Shown in pieces: positions 25,320 to 31,640 of a stretch of 64,000 nucleotides of DNA. Under the pieces are notes generated by a model. That model had not been told where the DNA came from. It made no database searches and saw nothing but the letters and a program-made list of their open reading frames with translations. Source of the stretch: an uncultured bacterium (GTDB lineage: Bacteria; CSSED10-310; CALFER01); contig CALFER010000090.1 of assembly GCA_937951895.1 (NCBI GenBank), positions 25,648 to 89,647 of the forward strand, read 5' to 3'. The translations under genes were made by a program, and so were the position numbers. The first letter of the stretch is position 1; every line of letters starts with the position of its first letter.

Positions 25320-27030
25320 TCCATCGGGAATACGCAGCATTACCCATCAGTTTCTGCATCATCGCCCGAGGTGCATCCGCCAGATCTACAGCGACAAGCG
25401 CATCCGTTGTGTGATTGAAGCGCGGATCGACATTGAACTGAACGATCTTACCTCCCAGATTCAAATACTGACGCACGAGAACCGGTATTTCGGCAGATTC
25501 CGGATCGATGTCAGCGATCACCTCAGATAACTCATCGATCGAACGAACGAACTCAACGATCGACCGGTCATCCTGCATGAATCGCCGACGCCAGCGATAC
25601 GGGTTTCGTGGTTTGACGAAGGAATGCAGATCGGTATGAAAATGGTGCATTTTCAGATAAGCGAGAATCAGTTGGACAGTGCGGTGATGATATCTGGGTG
25701 AGATACTGACAACGCCGAACAGATATCGGTATTGCGGATTTTCAGAAAGGTAGCAGGCGATACCCTTCCAAAGCAAAAAGAGCGGCCAGAAGGATTTCTG
25801 AAACTCAGGAAGCACAAAAGAACGTCCCAATTCAATTGAAGGTGTTTTAAAAAGTGGCATCCCGGGGCTGAATTTAAAGAGCGTAGACGTATAAATACCA
25901 ACCATCCCCCTGAGTCTCAGTTGTTCATCGACAAGACCCATCCGGTATCCACCCGCTATGCGTCCTGCGTCATTGTTCCAAAGGATCACATGCAGATAAT
26001 CCGAGTCGAATCGATCGAGATCAACCGGATGACCGGTACCTTCACCGGCCATTCTGAAGGTGAACTCACGCAGCAGTCCAATTTCGGAAATCGCATGCGG
26101 CGCGGCGCGTGAGGTGGTCAGAAACACCTCATAGTCTCCTCCCCCCACAAGCCATCGCGAACCTTTGGAATTACGCAGTTCAGATTCAATCCGGTGCAGA
26201 ACATCTCGATCTGAGGCTGGCGATAATGTCGCATCTGTTGATTGGATTTTCGAGTATCGAACAGCATCTGGTTTCATGGATACCTGGTGACCGAGGCAAT
26301 ACGTTCGAGCTCTGAGGTACGATGTTGTCATATCCTGATGCTCTTGACGATTCTGGAGATCCAACGCAATCGGACGGCCGATTCTCACGCTGATTTTCCG
26401 GCGCACTTTATTCATCAGTTCATGGGGAAGCATCAAGGTGCGCAGGCGGGGGTGTATAAGACCGAGAAGGTGAAACGGGAGACTATTCGATCCGGCGATA
26501 TATACAGGGATGACAGTTGCAGCAGTCCGCGCGATAAGACGAGCCGCGAAATTTTTCCAGGGAGGGTCCGTAATCCTTCGCTCTTTGAGACGCAGATGGG
26601 AAACCTCGCCGGCTGGAAAGAGTGCAAGAAGGCCATTGTTTCCAACGTGCTCGACAGCTTTCCGGATCGAAACCGTGTTGAAGCGGACTGATTCGTGGGA
26701 TTCAAATGGATCGATCCAGAAGAAGAACGGTTGGAGTTCTGGGATGATGCTGAGCCATTTATTGGCGAGCATTTTTGAATCGTGGCGACGCCTTTTCAGA
26801 AGCAGCGCAAGGATTAACCCTTCAATCGCCCCGAATGGATGATTGGCGACAACGATGACAGGTCCCTCCTGCGGAATTCGCTCGAGTTGCTCAGATGGAC
26901 AATCGATTGTGACTTCGAGTTCACGAAGTGCGCGTTCGATAAACGCAGGACCGCTAGCATTGGGCATCTGAACTCGCGCATATGTCTTTCTCAGCTTTCC
27001 AGGTACCGGTATCCTTGCCGCAATATTCAT
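25213..27030 (-). CDS. Bifunctional OlsF-like acyltransferase: N-terminal lysophospholipid (PlsC/OlsA-like) O-acyltransferase plus C-terminal OlsB/GNAT-like N-acyltransferase
   Basis: The N-terminal VVANHPFGAIEGL is an HX4D/E acyltransferase-type motif. The C-terminal half resembles OlsB-type N-acyltransferases. The roughly 600 aa fused architecture matches OlsF-type aminolipid synthases. Confidence 0.65.
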   Translation of the reverse strand: MNIAARIPVPGKLRKTYARVQMPNASGPAFIERALRELEVTIDCPSEQLERIPQEGPVIVVANHPFGAIEGLILALLLKRRRHDSKMLANKWLSIIPELQPFFFWIDPFESHESVRFNTVSIRKAVEHVGNNGLLALFPAGEVSHLRLKERRITDPPWKNFAARLIARTAATVIPVYIAGSNSLPFHLLGLIHPRLRTLMLPHELMNKVRRKISVRIGRPIALDLQNRQEHQDMTTSYLRARTYCLGHQVSMKPDAVRYSKIQSTDATLSPASDRDVLHRIESELRNSKGSRWLVGGGDYEVFLTTSRAAPHAISEIGLLREFTFRMAGEGTGHPVDLDRFDSDYLHVILWNNDAGRIAGGYRMGLVDEQLRLRGMVGIYTSTLFKFSPGMPLFKTPSIELGRSFVLPEFQKSFWPLFLLWKGIACYLSENPQYRYLFGVVSISPRYHHRTVQLILAYLKMHHFHTDLHSFVKPRNPYRWRRRFMQDDRSIVEFVRSIDELSEVIADIDPESAEIPVLVRQYLNLGGKIVQFNVDPRFNHTTDALVAVDLADAPRAMMQKLMGNAAYSRWITFPSGSMMACRDARDSGVWGAHGSHSRSGRDSAR

Positions 27031-27175
27031 GCGTCATTCCTCCCATGCGTATCATGAGCGGATCAGATTCAATGATCGTGAGAATCTCGCAAGATTTTCC
27101 ACATCCAATCAAACCTCGCTCTTGACCGCCGCCGAACACGCTTTCTATATTGGAAGGATTGCAAGGAGGTTCATC

Positions 27176-28372
27176 ATGATTGAGATTCAAAAACAGCGTC
27201 AGGAGATCGAAACCAATGTGTCCCAGTTTCTGGGAGATATGATCCGAATCCCCTCGACCAGCGGGAATGAAGGAGGCGTGATCCATCGCATCGCTTCCGA
27301 AATGAAAACGGTCGGATTCGATGATGTCAGAATCGATCCATTCGGGAATGTCATCGGAAGAATCGGATCAGGGCCTCGCCTGATTGCTTTCGATGCGCAT
27401 GTCGATACGGTGGATGTCGGAAACCGGAGCCTGTGGGAATTCGACCCGTTTTCAGGTCACATCCGGGACGGATTTGTCTGGGGTCGCGGCGCATCCGATC
27501 AGGAAGGCGGCATGGCATCCATGGTCCACGCCGGATGGCTCATGAAGAAATACGGTCTTCTCGATCCCGAATTCACGGTGCTCATGACCGGAACCGTCTC
27601 GGAGGAAGATTGCGATGGATTGTGCTGGCGATACCTGATCGAGAAGGAGGGGATTCGGCCGGAACTGGTCGTGGTTACAGAACCGACGGACTGCCGATTG
27701 TATCGCGGACAGCGGGGACGGATGGAAATCACGGCGACCATGCCGGGAGTCAGCTCGCATGGATCCGCTCCGGAACGCGGCGACAACGCGATCATCAAGA
27801 TGGCCGAGATCATCCGGCAGGTCCCTTCGCTGGCTAAGCGTCTGGGTGTCGACGAGTTTCTCGGGAAAGGCTCCATCACGATCAGTCAGGCCACATCGAC
27901 CGCCCCCTCCCTGTGCTCGGTGGCGGACTCCTGCCAGATCTACTTCGATCGCCGGCTGACCTGGGGAGAAACACCGGATCACGCGGTCGAGGAAATCCGG
28001 AAGCTCGATCCGACCGGACAACTCAAGGTCGAGGTTCCCGAGTATACGACTCCGACGCACACCGGACTGGTGTATCCGGTCGTAAAGGAGTTTCCCGCCT
28101 GGAAGACACCCGAGTCGCATGCATCGGTGCAGGCCGGTATCCGGACATTCAGCGAACTGTTCGGCCGTCCCGTCGAGGTCGGCCGCTGGACGTTCTCGAC
28201 GAACGGCGTGGCGATTTCCGGAGTGCACCGGATTCCGTGCATCGGATTCGGACCGGGGCGCGAGGAATGGGCGCACGCGCCGAACGAGCGGATCGCGATC
28301 GAACAACTCACGATGGCGGCCCTGTTTTATGCGTACTTCCCGTCGTTTTATCTGAAGGCCTGTCGCGGGTGA
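27176..28372 (+). CDS. M20 family peptidase/deacylase (YgeY-like)
   Basis: MIEIQKQRQ...IPSTSGNEGGV...GRGASDQEG is typical of M20 peptidases. AGGAGG RBS before ATG 27176. The track ORF starts earlier at 27029. Confidence 0.7.
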   Translation: MIEIQKQRQEIETNVSQFLGDMIRIPSTSGNEGGVIHRIASEMKTVGFDDVRIDPFGNVIGRIGSGPRLIAFDAHVDTVDVGNRSLWEFDPFSGHIRDGFVWGRGASDQEGGMASMVHAGWLMKKYGLLDPEFTVLMTGTVSEEDCDGLCWRYLIEKEGIRPELVVVTEPTDCRLYRGQRGRMEITATMPGVSSHGSAPERGDNAIIKMAEIIRQVPSLAKRLGVDEFLGKGSITISQATSTAPSLCSVADSCQIYFDRRLTWGETPDHAVEEIRKLDPTGQLKVEVPEYTTPTHTGLVYPVVKEFPAWKTPESHASVQAGIRTFSELFGRPVEVGRWTFSTNGVAISGVHRIPCIGFGPGREEWAHAPNERIAIEQLTMAALFYAYFPSFYLKACRG

Positions 28373-28399
28373 ACCGGATTTAACTCGTAATGCATTCAT

Positions 28400-28427
28400 T
28401 TGATTGACTTCATCTTCATGTTATGAT
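28400..28427 (+). promoter_or_regulatory. Putative sigma70-type promoter for the ygeW-hyuA pair (TTGATT-16-TATGAT)
   Basis: AT-rich gap after the M20 gene. -35 TTGATT at 28400-28405 and -10 TATGAT at 28422-28427, with 16-nt spacing. It lies about 40 nt upstream of the ygeW start. Confidence 0.3.
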
Positions 28428-28467
28428 GCACGAGGTCACTCAACGGACTTTATACAAGGAGGAGCGG

Positions 28468-29454
28468 ATGCAGACATTGTTCAGAAACAAACACCTGATC
28501 ACTCTTCAGGAATGGACACGCGAAGAAATCGACACCCTGCTCGAAACATCCAAACACCTCAAACTGATGTTTGCGATGGGTCAGCCGCACCGGTATCTGC
28601 AGGATAAAACCGCGTTCATGATCTTCTTCGAGCAGTCGACACGGACTCGGAATTCCGTGGAAGCCGGCATCACCCAACTCGGCGGACATGCCCATGATCT
28701 GACACCGGACAAGATGCAGTTGTCTCATGGTGAGTCGGCGAAGGATACCGCGATGGTGCTGTCTCGATTCGGTCATGGCATTGCAATCCGGAATTGTTTT
28801 TATGGAATCGGCAACAAGTATCTCCGGGAAGTCGCTCACTACAGCTCAATCCCGATCATCAATCTCCAGGATGATCTCTATCACCCGCTTCAGGCATTGG
28901 CCGATCTGATGACCATCCAGGAAAAGTTCGGCTCCACGCAGGGGCTCAAAGTCACGATTTCATGGGCATATGCCACCTCTCATGCGAAACCGCTCTCCGT
29001 TCCGTTATCCCAGATCCTTCTGTTCACGCGTTACGGGATGGATGTCACGGTGGCCGCACCGAAGGAATTCCCCCTGCTTCCGGATCTGGTGGCTCAAGCT
29101 GATCAAAATGCACAACAGCACGGCGGCAAACTGTCGTTCGTCGACAATATGGACGAGGGGTTCAAGGGCGCTCACGTCGTGATCCCGAAAAACTGGGGTG
29201 GGTTCGCCTGCACGCAGGATCCCAAGGAAATGTCCGCGAATCTTGAAAAGTACAAGAGCTGGATCTGCAACGAACAACGCATGGCACTTGCATCGAAGGA
29301 CGTCGTCTACATGCATGCTCTCCCGGCGGACCGTGGAAAGGAAGTCACCGACGCGGTCATCGACGGACCACACTCGATAATCTATGACGAGGCCGAAAAT
29401 CGACTGCATACCGTCAAGGCCGTCATGGCGCTGACCATGGGAGGCCGTCCCTGA
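28468..29454 (+). CDS. ygeW: YgeW-type knotted carbamoyltransferase
   Basis: FEQSTRTRNS (the STRTR carbamoyl-phosphate motif), ...KPLSVP... and TRYGMDVTVAAPKEF parallel E. coli YgeW (STRTR, KPLSVPQ, TRFGMDVTLAHPEGY). AAGGAGG RBS. Confidence 0.8.
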   Translation: MQTLFRNKHLITLQEWTREEIDTLLETSKHLKLMFAMGQPHRYLQDKTAFMIFFEQSTRTRNSVEAGITQLGGHAHDLTPDKMQLSHGESAKDTAMVLSRFGHGIAIRNCFYGIGNKYLREVAHYSSIPIINLQDDLYHPLQALADLMTIQEKFGSTQGLKVTISWAYATSHAKPLSVPLSQILLFTRYGMDVTVAAPKEFPLLPDLVAQADQNAQQHGGKLSFVDNMDEGFKGAHVVIPKNWGGFACTQDPKEMSANLEKYKSWICNEQRMALASKDVVYMHALPADRGKEVTDAVIDGPHSIIYDEAENRLHTVKAVMALTMGGRP

Positions 29455-30842
29455 GGCATCGCGCCGATTTCGATCATCCTGCGGACAACTGGATCATTCG
29501 TGGCGGTGCGATCGTCACCCCGGACGCCCTGATTCAGGGCGATATCCGGGTATCGGACGGTCGCATCGCCGAGATTGCCCCGGCCGTTCACGGAGTTTCC
29601 GCTCCGGAACTGGACGCTTCCGGCAAAATCGTACTCCCGGGGATCGTCGATCCCCATGTCCACTTTTCACTGCCGGTCGGTGAACGCATCACCTCCGATG
29701 ATTTTTCAGCCGGTTCCCGCGCGGCTCTGTTCGGAGGAGTCACAACCGCCATCGATTTTTCAACCCCCTCCCCCGCCATGTCCCTCTCGGATTCCATCCG
29801 CTCCCGTGTCCACGAACGACGGTTCAGTCGGATCGATATGGCGATCCACGGCACGATCTGCGGCTGGTCCGATTCCATGGCGACTGATATCGAAGCAGCC
29901 ATTGCCGACGGAGTCACCAGTTTCAAGTTTTTCACAACATACGAGGAGAGCGGCCGGAGAACGACGTACGGAGAGTTGGAAGCAGCCGCCCGATGCCTGG
30001 CGGATCTCGGCGTGATCATGACCGTACACGCCGAGGATAACTCGGTGATTCAAGCCTCTGCACCACGGAGTGATTCATTCAGTCTGTATGAATCCTCCAG
30101 ACCTGAAGCAGCCGAAGCCGAGGCAATAAGTCGATTGGCTTATATTGCGGATTCGATCGATGTCGGGATCTACATTGTCCATCTGAGTTCCCGGTTGGGG
30201 TACGAAGCGGCCGTCGGATCGAAGCTGATGCTGGAAACCTGCCCGCATTACCTGCTCCTCGATCGATCGCGTTTCGACCGACCGGATGGTTATCGGCATG
30301 CGCTTGCCCCCCCCCTGCGCAGCATCGAATCACAATCTGTGCTTTGGGAGGGGCTCAAAAGCGGCCGGATTGCGACGATTGCGACCGATCATTGTGTCTT
30401 CTCTCCGGAAGAGTATCGATCAGCCGGAGATCACTTTCGTCAGGCACCGTACGGTCTTCCGGGAGTCGAAACCTCACTGCCGCTCATGGTCACCCATGGT
30501 GTCAAGACCGGACGCATGAGTTGGAACGATCTGGCGGATCGGATGAGCACCGGGCCGGCGAAGATTTTCGGGTTATGGCCGGAGAAGGGTGAGATTCGTG
30601 TTGGGGCGCATGCCGATCTCGTGATTCTGGATCCGACCCATTCGCGGGCGGTCGAACCGCTTGATCTGCATAGCCGGACCGACTGGAATCCGTATTCGGG
30701 AATGATCCTTTTCGGATGGCCGGAAATCGTTTTTCTTAGAGGCCGGATTGCAATTGCTTCCGGTCAATGTTTTCTGGAGCCGGGAGCAGGCCGATACTTA
30801 CCGCGTGGCGTTTCGCATGACGCACACAGTCCCCTCGGATAA
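29451..30842 (+). CDS. hyuA: D-phenylhydantoinase/dihydropyrimidinase-family cyclic amidohydrolase (HyuA-like). The start is non-canonical.
   Basis: GIVDPHVHFSLPVGERITSDDFSAGSRAALFGGVTTAIDF matches E. coli HyuA ([40 protein letters not shown]). The homologous region begins near 29493, but the first ATG/GTG/TTG in frame is at 29778. CTG 29451 with GGGAGG 6 nt upstream is proposed as the start. Confidence 0.7.
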   Translation: MRHRADFDHPADNWIIRGGAIVTPDALIQGDIRVSDGRIAEIAPAVHGVSAPELDASGKIVLPGIVDPHVHFSLPVGERITSDDFSAGSRAALFGGVTTAIDFSTPSPAMSLSDSIRSRVHERRFSRIDMAIHGTICGWSDSMATDIEAAIADGVTSFKFFTTYEESGRRTTYGELEAAARCLADLGVIMTVHAEDNSVIQASAPRSDSFSLYESSRPEAAEAEAISRLAYIADSIDVGIYIVHLSSRLGYEAAVGSKLMLETCPHYLLLDRSRFDRPDGYRHALAPPLRSIESQSVLWEGLKSGRIATIATDHCVFSPEEYRSAGDHFRQAPYGLPGVETSLPLMVTHGVKTGRMSWNDLADRMSTGPAKIFGLWPEKGEIRVGAHADLVILDPTHSRAVEPLDLHSRTDWNPYSGMILFGWPEIVFLRGRIAIASGQCFLEPGAGRYLPRGVSHDAHSPLG

Positions 30843-31640
30843 TCGTCCATATCGAATCGCCTGCAGTTCCGCCATGATCGACACTGCGATTTCGGTTGGA
30901 TTGTCACCCCCGATATCGAGACCGATCGGTGAAAATACCCGGTCCAGTGCATCCCTTTGAACACCCGATTTTGCGATGTTTTCAAGAACCGTCCCGACTT
31001 TTTTCCTCGATCCGATCATCCCGATATAACGGGGAATCTCCGATTCGTTCCTGAGCAACGCATTGAGGACGTCCGAATCATATCGGTGATTATGGGTCAG
31101 GATGACGATCGAGTCGGATGGAAACAACGGCATGATCCCGGCATGTTCGACGGGGTGTGCGCAGATGACCGTGGTACGGTTGGAGAATCGATCTGCACGA
31201 GCAAAATCAGGGCGATCATCGATGATGGTGACATCGAATCCGCATCCCTGCGCAATCGGAGTTATCGCGGAACCGATGTGCCCTGCACCGAAAATGATAA
31301 TCCGGTCGAGAGGACGGAGCAACTCGTAGTAAAGCGTCATCAGACCGCCGCAAAGCATGCCGGTCTTCTGACTGACCGGGTTGATCACTCCGGATGTCAG
31401 GTCATACTCCTGCAGCATGTTCTGCTCACGTCCGGAAAACATCCGGCAAGCGGTTTCCTTCGCGATGTTTTCGATCGCTCCTCCACCGATCGTGCCCATG
31501 ATGTCCCCTGAGTGGCGAACCAGCATTTTCGATCCGGCAGCACGGGGAGAACTGTCCTGAGCGCGCACAACCGTCACCAGTACGGCGGGTTCGGCACTGC
31601 CGTTTTCAATGCGGATGATCTCTTCATAGAGATTCTTCAT
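30798..31640 (-). CDS. XdhC/CoxI-family molybdenum-hydroxylase accessory protein
   Basis: An N-terminal XdhC_CoxI domain is followed by a Rossmann-like IIFGAGHIGSAI. Convergent with hyuA, overlapping it by 45 bp. Confidence 0.7.
   Translation of the reverse strand: MKNLYEEIIRIENGSAEPAVLVTVVRAQDSSPRAAGSKMLVRHSGDIMGTIGGGAIENIAKETACRMFSGREQNMLQEYDLTSGVINPVSQKTGMLCGGLMTLYYELLRPLDRIIIFGAGHIGSAITPIAQGCGFDVTIIDDRPDFARADRFSNRTTVICAHPVEHAGIMPLFPSDSIVILTHNHRYDSDVLNALLRNESEIPRYIGMIGSRKKVGTVLENIAKSGVQRDALDRVFSPIGLDIGGDNPTEIAVSIMAELQAIRYGRLSEGTVCVMRNATR

What the first reader, a model, noticed from the sequence alone, without database searches (positions are those of the whole stretch)
29385..29500. hyuA homolog has no canonical start codon: a probable CTG start coupled to the ygeW stop (CTGA), or else an A->C error/recoding site
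The hydantoinase-homologous N-terminus (WIIRGGAIVTPD...GIVDPHVHF) is encoded from about 29493 in frame 0. That frame is open from the TGA at 29385-29387, yet the first ATG/GTG/TTG in frame is ATG 29778, about 95 residues into the conserved domain. A CTG at 29451 sits 6 nt after a GGGAGG Shine-Dalgarno (29439-29444) and overlaps the ygeW TGA (29452-29454) in a cCTGAgg arrangement that mimics the ATGA coupling seen elsewhere in this window. The gene either genuinely uses a rare CTG initiator, or the site is a sequencing/assembly substitution of ATGA.
Basis: seen in the sequence. Interest (0 to 1): 0.55.

Follow-up and report, generated by a model that had tools for sequence, protein, structure and literature searches.

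The report
Hydantoinase-like gene lacking a canonical start codon
A working, conserved hydantoinase-like enzyme gene lost its ATG start long ago and most likely begins at a rare CTG codon overlapping the stop of the gene before it, so public annotations call it truncated; this kind of exception is known but uncommon.

Summary
The hydantoinase/dihydropyrimidinase-like frame is open from 29388. Its first ATG/GTG/TTG is ATG 29778, 95 codons inside the conserved domain and after the HxH metal ligands.

It is not a sequencing error. Six further independent assemblies of this species have the same junction. So do four assemblies of a sister species (88% aa), which also lacks a canonical start.

The start-less N-terminal 96 codons have dN/dS 0.13 between the two species, against 0.12 for the rest of the gene. 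They are therefore translated.

More distant relatives in the same gene order all have an ATG 2-16 nt after the carbamoyltransferase stop. The ancestral ATG was lost once, before the two species split. It was not an ATGA that mutated.

The only near-cognate codon upstream of the invariant Trp is CTG 29451. It overlaps TGA 29452-54 and sits 6 nt after GGGAGG (SD duplex -10.2 kcal/mol, top 0.9% of positions). ATC 29493 and ATT 29496 have no SD and would remove the Trp.

Best reading: an SD-assisted CTG start coupled to upstream termination (about 0.6, unproven).

The labels ygeW and hyuA fail NCBIfam cut-offs. This is a new member of a known kind, of modest interest.

The parts
28468..29454 (+). 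OTC-like carbamoyltransferase gene (328 aa), ending ...MALTMGGRP-TGA. The longest ORF starts at 28423.
   Evidence: ATG 28468 follows caaGGAGGagcgg. All clade relatives are 328 aa. The best NCBIfam match is ornithine carbamoyltransferase TIGR00658 at 268 bits, below its cut-off of 280.85. The YgeW models score 189-203 bits against cut-offs of 453-500.
29439..29444 (+). Shine-Dalgarno-like GGGAGG inside the last codons (Met-Gly-Gly) of the upstream gene
   Evidence: The duplex with the canonical anti-SD is -10.2 kcal/mol. That is in the top 0.9% of all + strand positions and stronger than the median (-7.3) of 35 likely real starts. The 6-nt spacer equals the commonest spacing in the window.
29451..29453 (+). 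CTG, the proposed initiator of the hydantoinase-like gene, overlapping stop TGA 29452-54 (CTGA)
   Evidence: It is the only in-frame near-cognate codon between the upstream stop (29385-87) and the invariant Trp. It is identical in 7 sequences of this species and 4 assemblies of the sister species.
29454..29489 (+). 12-codon stretch between the CTG and the invariant Trp (RHRADFDHPADN). It would be an N-terminal extension if CTG is the start. It occupies the place where relatives have their ATG.
   Evidence: It shows 4 differences in 36 nt and no indel against the sister species. Intergenic identity is 73-77% with indels, and third-position identity is 68%. Binomial P = 0.004 at the third-position rate. 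L004's ATG aligns with TTC 29469 here and with CTT in L001.
29490..29777 (+). N-terminal 96 codons of the conserved amidohydrolase domain with no canonical start upstream. Includes the HxH metal ligands (29655-57, 29661-63).
   Evidence: dN/dS against the sister species is 0.13 here and 0.12 for the rest of the gene. Solved D-hydantoinases align from their residues 3-4 to residues 14-15 of this protein. TIGR02033 profile position 2 aligns to residue 15.
29493..29498 (+). ATC ATT, the rival near-cognate start candidates just after the Trp
   Evidence: The SD duplex is only -3.2 kcal/mol, which is background level (35th percentile). The ATT is ATC in the sister species. Starting here would remove Trp14, which is invariant in 8 clade members.
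29778..29780 (+). ATG used by public gene callers, giving a truncated 354-aa product (P0002)
   Evidence: This is the first canonical in-frame start. It has no SD (+2.7 kcal/mol, C-rich upstream) and lies after the HxH motif. The sister species is instead called from a lineage-specific GTG at codon 82.
29451..30842 (+). Full hydantoinase/dihydropyrimidinase-like gene as proposed (463 codons plus TGA)
   Evidence: The Pfam Amidohydro_1/Amidohydro_3 and TIGR02033 matches span residues 15-452. The columns that I take, from my own knowledge of the family, to be the metal and catalytic residues are invariant in the clade alignment: H69, H71, K159, H193, H244 and D313.
29382..29663 (-). Antisense ORF called as a 91-aa gene in public assemblies; judged spurious
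   Evidence: It is listed and called in L005-L010. It lies over + strand codons that are under purifying selection.
30798..31640 (-). Convergent XdhC-family gene whose 3' end overlaps the hydantoinase 3' end by 45 nt
   Evidence: Pfam XdhC_CoxI plus XdhC_C. The same convergent overlap is seen in relatives.

Best explanation
The gene encodes an intact, selected hydantoinase/dihydropyrimidinase-like cyclic amidohydrolase. Its ancestral ATG lay about 10-16 nt after the upstream stop and was lost in the common ancestor of this species and a sister species. Translation now most likely starts at CTG 29451, read as fMet by initiator tRNA.

The CTG overlaps the TGA of the upstream OTC-like gene (CTGA) and sits 6 nt after a strong SD (GGGAGG) embedded in that gene's last codons. 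Ribosomes finishing the upstream gene, or ribosomes recruited by the SD once the upstream ribosome has opened the region, would start there. This would give a low, fixed output relative to the upstream enzyme.

Shown:
- There is no canonical start.
- The sequence is not an error.
- The N-terminal region is under protein-level selection.
- The ancestral ATG has been lost.
- The SD is strong and correctly spaced.

Inferred:
- That CTG rather than another codon is used.
- That initiation depends on upstream termination.
- That output is low.
For: Not an error: the cCTGAgg junction is identical in the window and in 6 other assemblies from different samples. It is also present in 4 assemblies of a species with 88% aa identity that likewise has no canonical in-frame start before its domain.

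Translated: dN/dS is 0.13 for codons 14-109 and 0.12 for the rest. This is in line with neighbouring genes at 0.10-0.19. The six positions I take to be metal or catalytic residues are all present.

N-terminus at or before Trp14: 8 clade members keep the Trp, and the six with canonical starts begin 3-8 residues before it. PDB hydantoinases and TIGR02033 align from their residues 2-4 to residues 14-15.

Ancestral ATG lost: L004, L096, L097 and L099 share the gene order and have an ATG 2-16 nt after the stop.

CTG specifically:
- It is the only near-cognate in-frame codon upstream of the Trp.
- Its SD duplex is -10.2 kcal/mol, top 0.9% of positions. ATC/ATT score -3.2 and ATG 29778 scores +2.7.
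- The 6-nt spacing and the NTGA overlap match the window's own SD-led ATGA/GTGA couplings.
- The 36 nt after the CTG are more conserved than neutral sites and have no indel.

Precedent:
- CTG starts were verified in E. coli hda and yfjD (PMC3531124).
- CUG supports about 1-2% of AUG initiation (bioRxiv 10.1101/063800).
- Termination-reinitiation at 4-nt overlaps is usually SD-assisted (PMC6728339).
Against: There is no direct evidence of initiation at the CTG.

The SD is weak evidence statistically.
- The upstream protein always ends Met-Gly-Gly-Arg-Pro, so ATG GGN GGN gives GGGAGG whenever the first Gly codon is GGA.
- L099 has a normal ATG and also has GGGAGG.
- GGAGG followed by some in-frame CTG occurs about 10 times in the window by chance.

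Conservation of the C at 29451 in two lineages is not significant at their divergence. L004 has its own ATG and also has CCC TGA there.

A CTG start gives 13 residues before the Trp, longer than any relative (3-8).

Three of the four changes in the 12-codon stretch are non-synonymous (dN/dS about 0.75, tiny sample).

A, G or T at 29451 would each create a canonical start without changing the upstream protein, yet C persists.

The run without synonymous changes at the 3' end of the upstream gene is not unusual (P = 0.06, with longer runs elsewhere).
Confidence: 0.6

Rival explanations
1. Translation starts at ATC 29493 or ATT 29496, just after the Trp. Ribosomes would reach these codons by scanning about 40 nt from the upstream stop, or by weak de novo initiation.
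For: Both are near-cognate codons, as efficient as CUG in E. coli (1-2% of AUG; bioRxiv 10.1101/063800). AUU is a proven start in infC and pcnB (same paper). TIGR02033 and PDB hydantoinases align from their residues 2-4 to residue 15, so a protein starting here would still hold the family core. ATC 29493 is conserved in the sister species. Under this reading, the conservation of the 36 nt upstream could reflect an initiation region rather than coding.
Against: There is no SD. The duplex is -3.2 kcal/mol, at background level, and the weak GCGGA is GCGAA in the sister species. Starting here deletes Trp14, which is invariant in all 8 clade members. ATT 29496 is ATC in the sister species. The predicted 9-bp stem (29458-66 with 29504-12) would enclose these codons, but that fold is not statistically supported.
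Confidence: 0.15
2. A -1 ribosomal frameshift at CGU CCC UGA joins the carbamoyltransferase to the hydantoinase in one fusion protein, so no start codon is needed.
For: The hydantoinase frame is -1 relative to the upstream frame and is open right across the junction from 29388. From my own knowledge, a P-site Pro codon next to a slowly decoded UGA is a shift-prone context. There is an SD-like element just upstream.
Against: There is no X_XXY_YYZ slippery heptamer in the last 30 nt (read). A slip from CCC to UCC needs a first-position mismatch. The SD is 4 nt from the P-site codon, a spacing that, from my own knowledge of prfB, favours +1. The +1 frame is not the hydantoinase frame and closes near 29690. 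None of the 120 best homologues is a carbamoyltransferase-amidohydrolase fusion; all are 322-502 aa with amidohydrolase domains only. In relatives the two genes are separate, with TAA or TAG stops and their own ATG.
Confidence: 0.04
3. The gene is dead or truncated. Either it is a pseudogene, or only the 354-aa product from ATG 29778 is made, as public annotation states.
For: Gene callers start it at ATG 29778 (P0002). In the sister species they start it at a GTG at codon 82 (P0001).
Against: The upstream 96 codons have dN/dS 0.13 over dS of about 0.6, the same as the rest of the gene. They have no stop or frameshift in either species. ATG 29778 has no SD (+2.7 kcal/mol), and a product from it lacks both HxH histidines. 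The two species' first canonical codons sit at different places, so neither is a conserved start.
Confidence: 0.04
4. Sequencing or assembly error: the true sequence is ATGA (or GTGA or TTGA) at 29451.
For: A single base change at a synonymous site of the upstream gene would create a canonical coupled start.
Against: Seven sequences of this species (ERZ724081-84, ERZ724086, SRR3330211 and the window) all read C. So do four assemblies of the sister species, made in different projects with different assemblers.
Confidence: 0.01

Closest known systems
E. coli hda and yfjD: chromosomal genes experimentally shown to start at CTG (EcoGene 3.0, PMC3531124)
   Same: A conserved protein whose N-terminus extends upstream of any ATG/GTG/TTG. 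A CTG preceded by a ribosome-binding site is the inferred start. Automatic annotation misplaces the start.
   Different: [quoted passage not shown] Nothing has been verified experimentally. The relatives show that this CTG replaced a lost ATG a few codons downstream.
Stop-start overlap coupling (ATGA/GTGA) by termination-reinitiation (Huber et al. 2019, PMC6728339; review PMC12548453)
   Same: A co-directional gene pair with a 4-nt overlap and an SD inside the 3' end of the upstream gene. The same architecture is used by at least five other gene pairs in this window.
   Different: The start codon is CTG, not ATG/GTG/TTG. The cited work did not test near-cognate restart codons. Dependence on upstream translation is not shown here.
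infC and pcnB AUU starts in E. coli (cited in bioRxiv 10.1101/063800)
   Same: A conserved non-canonical initiator that gives low or regulated expression.
   Different: From my own knowledge, infC's AUU serves IF3 autoregulation. No regulatory logic is evident here, and AUU/AUC is the less likely codon at this locus.
prfB-type programmed +1 frameshift cassette (SD, short spacer, slippery codon, UGA); recalled from own knowledge
   Same: GGGAGG-N4-CCC-UGA has the same layout.
   Different: The +1 frame is not the hydantoinase frame and closes after about 79 codons. The resemblance appears coincidental.

Membership tests
Bacterial genes with a non-canonical (CTG) initiator | Conserved, selected coding sequence extends upstream of every in-frame ATG/GTG/TTG | tested here: met
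   The first canonical start is 95 codons inside the domain. dN/dS is 0.13 in that stretch. Homologues and solved structures align from residues 14-15.
Bacterial genes with a non-canonical (CTG) initiator | Near-cognate codon at the 5' edge of the conserved region with a ribosome-binding site at working distance | tested here: met
   CTG 29451 lies 6 nt after GGGAGG. The duplex is -10.2 kcal/mol, top 0.9% of positions.
Bacterial genes with a non-canonical (CTG) initiator | Conservation of that codon in orthologues beyond what neutrality gives | tested here: inconclusive
   The CTG is present in both start-less species. However, about 60-70% of free sites are unchanged at this divergence. L004 has its own ATG and also carries CCC TGA.
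Bacterial genes with a non-canonical (CTG) initiator | Direct evidence of initiation at the codon (N-terminal peptide, start-site profiling or mutagenesis) | not testable with these tools
   No expression data are available for these uncultured genomes.
Translational coupling by stop-start overlap (termination-reinitiation) | Co-directional pair with a 4-nt or 1-nt stop-start overlap and an intragenic SD | tested here: met
   CTGA spans 29451-54 and the SD lies at 29439-44. The gene pair is syntenic in all relatives.
Translational coupling by stop-start overlap (termination-reinitiation) | Downstream translation depends on ribosomes terminating at the upstream stop | not testable with these tools
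   This needs a premature-stop reporter experiment. The predicted local folds are not significant (z = -0.3 and -1.2).
D-hydantoinase/dihydropyrimidinase (TIGR02033 equivalog; 'hyuA') | Score above the curated cut-off | tested here: not met
   364.8 bits against a cut-off of 393.25. The closest PDB matches are D-hydantoinases at E = 5.5e-82. It is best called hydantoinase-like.
D-hydantoinase/dihydropyrimidinase (TIGR02033 equivalog; 'hyuA') | Metal and catalytic residues of cyclic amidohydrolases: HxH, carbamylated Lys, two His and Asp (this list rests on my own knowledge of the family) | tested here: met
   H69, H71, K159, H193, H244 and D313 are invariant in the clade alignment.
YgeW knotted carbamoyltransferase | Score above the curated cut-off of TIGR03316 or NF005538 | tested here: not met
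   189.4 and 202.7 bits against cut-offs of 500 and 453. The best match is ornithine carbamoyltransferase at 268.3 bits, also below its cut-off of 280.85.
Programmed ribosomal frameshift joining the two genes | A slippery site that leads into the downstream frame | tested here: not met
   There is no -1 heptamer. The +1 slip at CCC_UGA enters the wrong frame (read).

The most novel reading that the evidence does not exclude
The hydantoinase has been expressed, for as long as the two species have been apart (dS about 0.6), solely by ribosomes that terminate on the upstream carbamoyltransferase and restart on the overlapping CUG. The weak initiator would act as a device that makes expression strictly dependent on, and a small fixed fraction of, upstream translation. 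Selection would hold C at a site where any other base would create a canonical start. That would be a natural, conserved case of obligate reinitiation at a near-cognate codon.
Probability: 0.3. Interest if true: 0.5.

Novelty: new member of a known kind. Interest (0 to 1): 0.33.

Why it matters
Practical point: every public gene call for this enzyme in both species is truncated, at 354 or 402 aa. One of the two calls lacks the metal-binding HxH. A spurious antisense ORF is called in the gap that results. Function prediction from those records would be wrong.

Biological point: this is a clean comparative case of a start codon lost and replaced. Relatives keep an ATG a few codons downstream, while two descendant species have kept the enzyme under normal purifying selection without any canonical start.

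If the CTGA start is confirmed, it would be a natural test bed for two questions. One is whether reinitiating ribosomes tolerate near-cognate codons. The other is whether weak initiators are used to set enzyme ratios within an operon.

Tried and rejected
- **More close relatives.** I scanned genome contigs and metagenome contigs. The genome scan found only the sister species again, plus relatives at 37% identity or less. The metagenome scan found nothing above 38%. The protein search shows only three lineages above 50% identity. The comparative sample therefore stays at two start-less species plus four relatives with ATG.
- **Suppressed synonymous change at the 3' end of the upstream gene.** This would have indicated an embedded initiation signal. 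There are 13 codons without change, P = 0.06, and longer runs (22, 20, 19) occur elsewhere in that very conserved gene. Not significant.
- **RNA structure around the junction.** A 9-bp stem and an SD-sequestering hairpin are predicted in both species. The fold energies are ordinary (z = -0.32 and -1.20) and there is no covariation to test.
- **Rfam and tRNA scans of the window.** Nothing found.
- **+1 frameshift at CCC_UGA.** It enters the wrong frame.
- **-1 frameshift.** There is no slippery heptamer and no natural fusion among homologues.
- **Alternative genetic code (UGA as sense).** Rejected. Orthologous upstream genes end at the same residue with TAA or TAG.
- **Other genes in the window with the same anomaly.** None found. 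Ten other ORFs with long start-less stretches were scanned. Five gave Pfam hits, all beginning downstream of the first canonical start.
- **Taxon.** Not resolved. The records are named only 'uncultured bacterium'. A 47%-identical homologue comes from candidate division CSSED10-310.
Full report
**What is in the sequence.**
- The OTC-like carbamoyltransferase gene ends ...ATG GGA GGC CGT CCC TGA at 29452-54.
- The hydantoinase-like reading frame is open from 29388, after TGA 29385-87, to TGA 30840-42.
- It encodes ...S-L-R-H-R-A-D-F-D-H-P-A-D-N-W-I-I-R-G-G-A-I-V-T....
- The first in-frame ATG/GTG/TTG is ATG 29778, 130 codons after the upstream stop.
- In-frame near-cognate codons before the domain core are CTG 29451, ATC 29493 and ATT 29496. 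There are none between 29388 and 29450.

**The anomaly is singular in the window.** No other long ORF has a comparable start-less stretch. I scanned ten other ORFs with 30 or more open codons before their first canonical start. Five gave Pfam hits, and in each the domain begins downstream of that start. Examples are ketoacyl synthase, GCV_T, the PurH domains and a response regulator. The other five had no hit.

**Where the protein should begin.**
- NCBIfam TIGR02033 (D-hydantoinase) aligns its positions 2-454 to residues 15-452, counting from the CTG.
- Solved D-hydantoinases align from their own residues 3-4 to residues 14-15.
- In an alignment of the eight closest clade members, Trp14 is invariant. 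The six with canonical starts begin 3-8 residues before it: MEKW, MPDKW, MMKKW, MTKMEKW, MNPHQTDW and MGRDQNTRW.
- The HxH ligands (H69, H71; 29655-63) lie upstream of Met 29778, so the publicly called 354-aa product (P0002) would lack them.
- Six positions are invariant: H69, H71, K159, H193, H244 and D313. From my own knowledge of cyclic amidohydrolases, I take these to be the metal and catalytic residues.

**Not an error.**
- The truncated product P0002 is found on 9 contigs. Six loci from different samples (ERZ724081-84, ERZ724086, SRR3330211) are base-for-base identical to the window across 29380-29660.
- A second species (protein 87-88% identical; GCA_964472395.1, ERZ27257500, SRR8476420, JGI 3300028622) has the same cCTGAgg junction.
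- Its sequence there is ctg agg tat cgc gcc gat ctt gat cat cct gcg aac aac tgg atc atc, again with no canonical in-frame start.
- Gene callers begin it at a lineage-specific GTG at codon 82 (MFPGIVDPH).

**The start-less part is translated.**
- Nei-Gojobori estimates between the two species give dN/dS 0.129 for codons 14-109 (33.5 synonymous and 16.5 non-synonymous changes; dS 0.64).
- The remainder of the gene gives 0.118.
- Neighbouring genes give 0.10-0.19. The YgeY-like and OTC-like genes are tighter, at 0.03 and 0.02.
- A pseudogene, or a gene truly starting at 29778, would not keep this pattern over dS of about 0.6.

**History.**
- Four more distant relatives (47-67% aa) keep the same gene order: phosphorylase, M20 YgeY-like, 328-aa carbamoyltransferase, hydantoinase, and a convergent XdhC.
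- All four have an ATG 2, 9, 14 or 16 nt after the carbamoyltransferase stop.
- The distance from that stop to the Trp codon is 33-35 nt in three of them and 35 nt in the window.
- L004's ATG aligns with TTC 29469 in the window and with CTT in the sister species.
- The ancestral ATG was therefore lost once, before the two species diverged. The CTG is not a mutated ATGA.

**Which codon starts translation.**
- The organism uses SD-led initiation: many genes have GGAGG 5-9 nt before the start.
- It also uses ATGA/GTGA stop-start overlaps, at 17890-, 20112-, 40427+, 41511-, 12857+, 59335- and 46980-.
- With the canonical anti-SD, the duplex upstream of CTG 29451 is -10.2 kcal/mol. That is in the top 0.9% of positions, and the median of 35 likely real starts is -7.3.
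- ATC and ATT score -3.2, which is background. ATG 29778 scores +2.7.
- CTG is the only candidate that keeps Trp14.
- The 36 nt between the CTG and the Trp have 4 substitutions and no indel. Intergenic spacers are 73-77% identical with indels, and third positions are 68% identical (P = 0.004 at the third-position rate, about 0.05 at the intergenic rate).

**Caveats on the CTG.**
- GGGAGG is largely forced by the invariant Met-Gly-Gly tail. L099 has it together with a normal downstream ATG.
- GGAGG is not rare: there are 178 copies in the window, about 10 of them followed by some in-frame CTG.
- Conservation of the C is not significant at this divergence.
- The CTG would give a longer N-terminal tail than any relative has.
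- Three of the four changes in that tail are non-synonymous.
- I put the CTG start at about 0.6, ATC/ATT at about 0.15, and the remainder on frameshift fusion, loss of function, or an unforeseen mechanism.

**A curious detail.** Position 29451 is the third base of the Pro codon CCC. A, G or T there would give ATGA, GTGA or TTGA without changing the upstream protein. The site holds the one base that avoids a canonical start. With only two lineages this cannot be distinguished from chance.

**Mechanism proposed.**
- Inferred: ribosomes terminating at UGA 29452-54 stay on the mRNA, held by the SD/anti-SD contact, and restart on the overlapping CUG with fMet-tRNA. Alternatively, 30S subunits bind the SD once the upstream ribosome has melted the region.
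- Expected consequence: output is low and tied to the upstream gene.
- Support from the literature:
  - In E. coli, CUG supports about 1-2% of AUG initiation (range 0.02-3%) (bioRxiv 10.1101/063800).
  - CTG starts are proven for hda and yfjD (PMC3531124).
  - Reinitiation at 4-nt overlaps is widespread and usually SD-assisted (PMC6728339; review PMC12548453).

**Alternatives tested.**
- A +1 slip at CCC_UGA has a prfB-like layout, with the SD 4 nt upstream. It enters the frame at 29453, which is not the hydantoinase frame and closes near 29690.
- A -1 slip would be needed for a fusion. There is no slippery heptamer, and none of the 120 best homologues is a fusion.
- UGA as a sense codon is excluded, because orthologous upstream genes end at the same residue with TAA or TAG.
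- Predicted RNA folds are unremarkable.
- Rfam and tRNA scans are empty.

**Names.** Only the M20 gene passes a curated threshold (YgeY family, 530 bits against 321). The upstream gene is not YgeW by NCBIfam and falls just below the ornithine carbamoyltransferase cut-off. The downstream gene falls just below the D-hydantoinase cut-off.

**Verdict.**
- The finding is a real and correctly described anomaly.
- Sequencing error is excluded.
- A conserved non-canonical start, most likely CTG in a CTGA overlap, is the best explanation. It needs N-terminal proteomics or a reporter assay to confirm.
- It is a new member of a known kind. It is useful for correcting annotation and makes a tidy example of start-codon turnover, but it is not a new mechanism.

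Noticed in passing
window 29382-29663 (-): Public assemblies call a 91-aa antisense gene in the gap left by the truncated hydantoinase call. It overlies + strand codons under purifying selection and is almost certainly spurious.
   Followed up: partly
window 27029-28372 and 28423-29454 (+): The longest ORFs of the YgeY-like and OTC-like genes start at 27029 and 28423. SD-backed ATGs at 27176 and 28468 give 398 and 328 aa instead, which match the lengths of the clade relatives. Public calls vary between the two versions.
   Followed up: partly
window 30798-30842: The 3' ends of the hydantoinase-like gene and the convergent XdhC-family gene overlap by 45 nt. A 30-51 nt convergent overlap is kept in all relatives examined (L001, L004, L096, L097, L099).
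   Followed up: no
window 28468-29454 vs L001 4838-5824: Between the two species the OTC-like protein is 98.8% identical, with dN/dS 0.02 and dS 0.34. Its neighbours are 79-96% identical with dS 0.57-1.0. It is unusually constrained even at synonymous sites, or it was recently exchanged.
   Followed up: partly
window 29439-29454: GGGAGG-N4-CCC-UGA has the layout of a prfB-type +1 frameshift cassette. The +1 frame is Arg-rich nonsense that closes near 29690, so the resemblance is probably coincidental.
   Followed up: partly
window 29458-29466 and 29504-29512: A 9-bp complementary pair, AUCGCGCCG and CGGUGCGAU, is predicted to form a stem enclosing the Trp-Ile-Ile codons. It is present in the window and the sister species and absent from L004. 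The fold energies are not significant.
   Followed up: partly
window 27176-31640: The conserved four-gene set is an M20 YgeY-like hydrolase, an OTC-like carbamoyltransferase, a hydantoinase-like amidohydrolase and a convergent XdhC. In this window and in the relatives it has no xanthine dehydrogenase subunits nearby. It is flanked by glucan phosphorylase, acyltransferase and epimerase genes. Its substrate is unknown.
   Followed up: no
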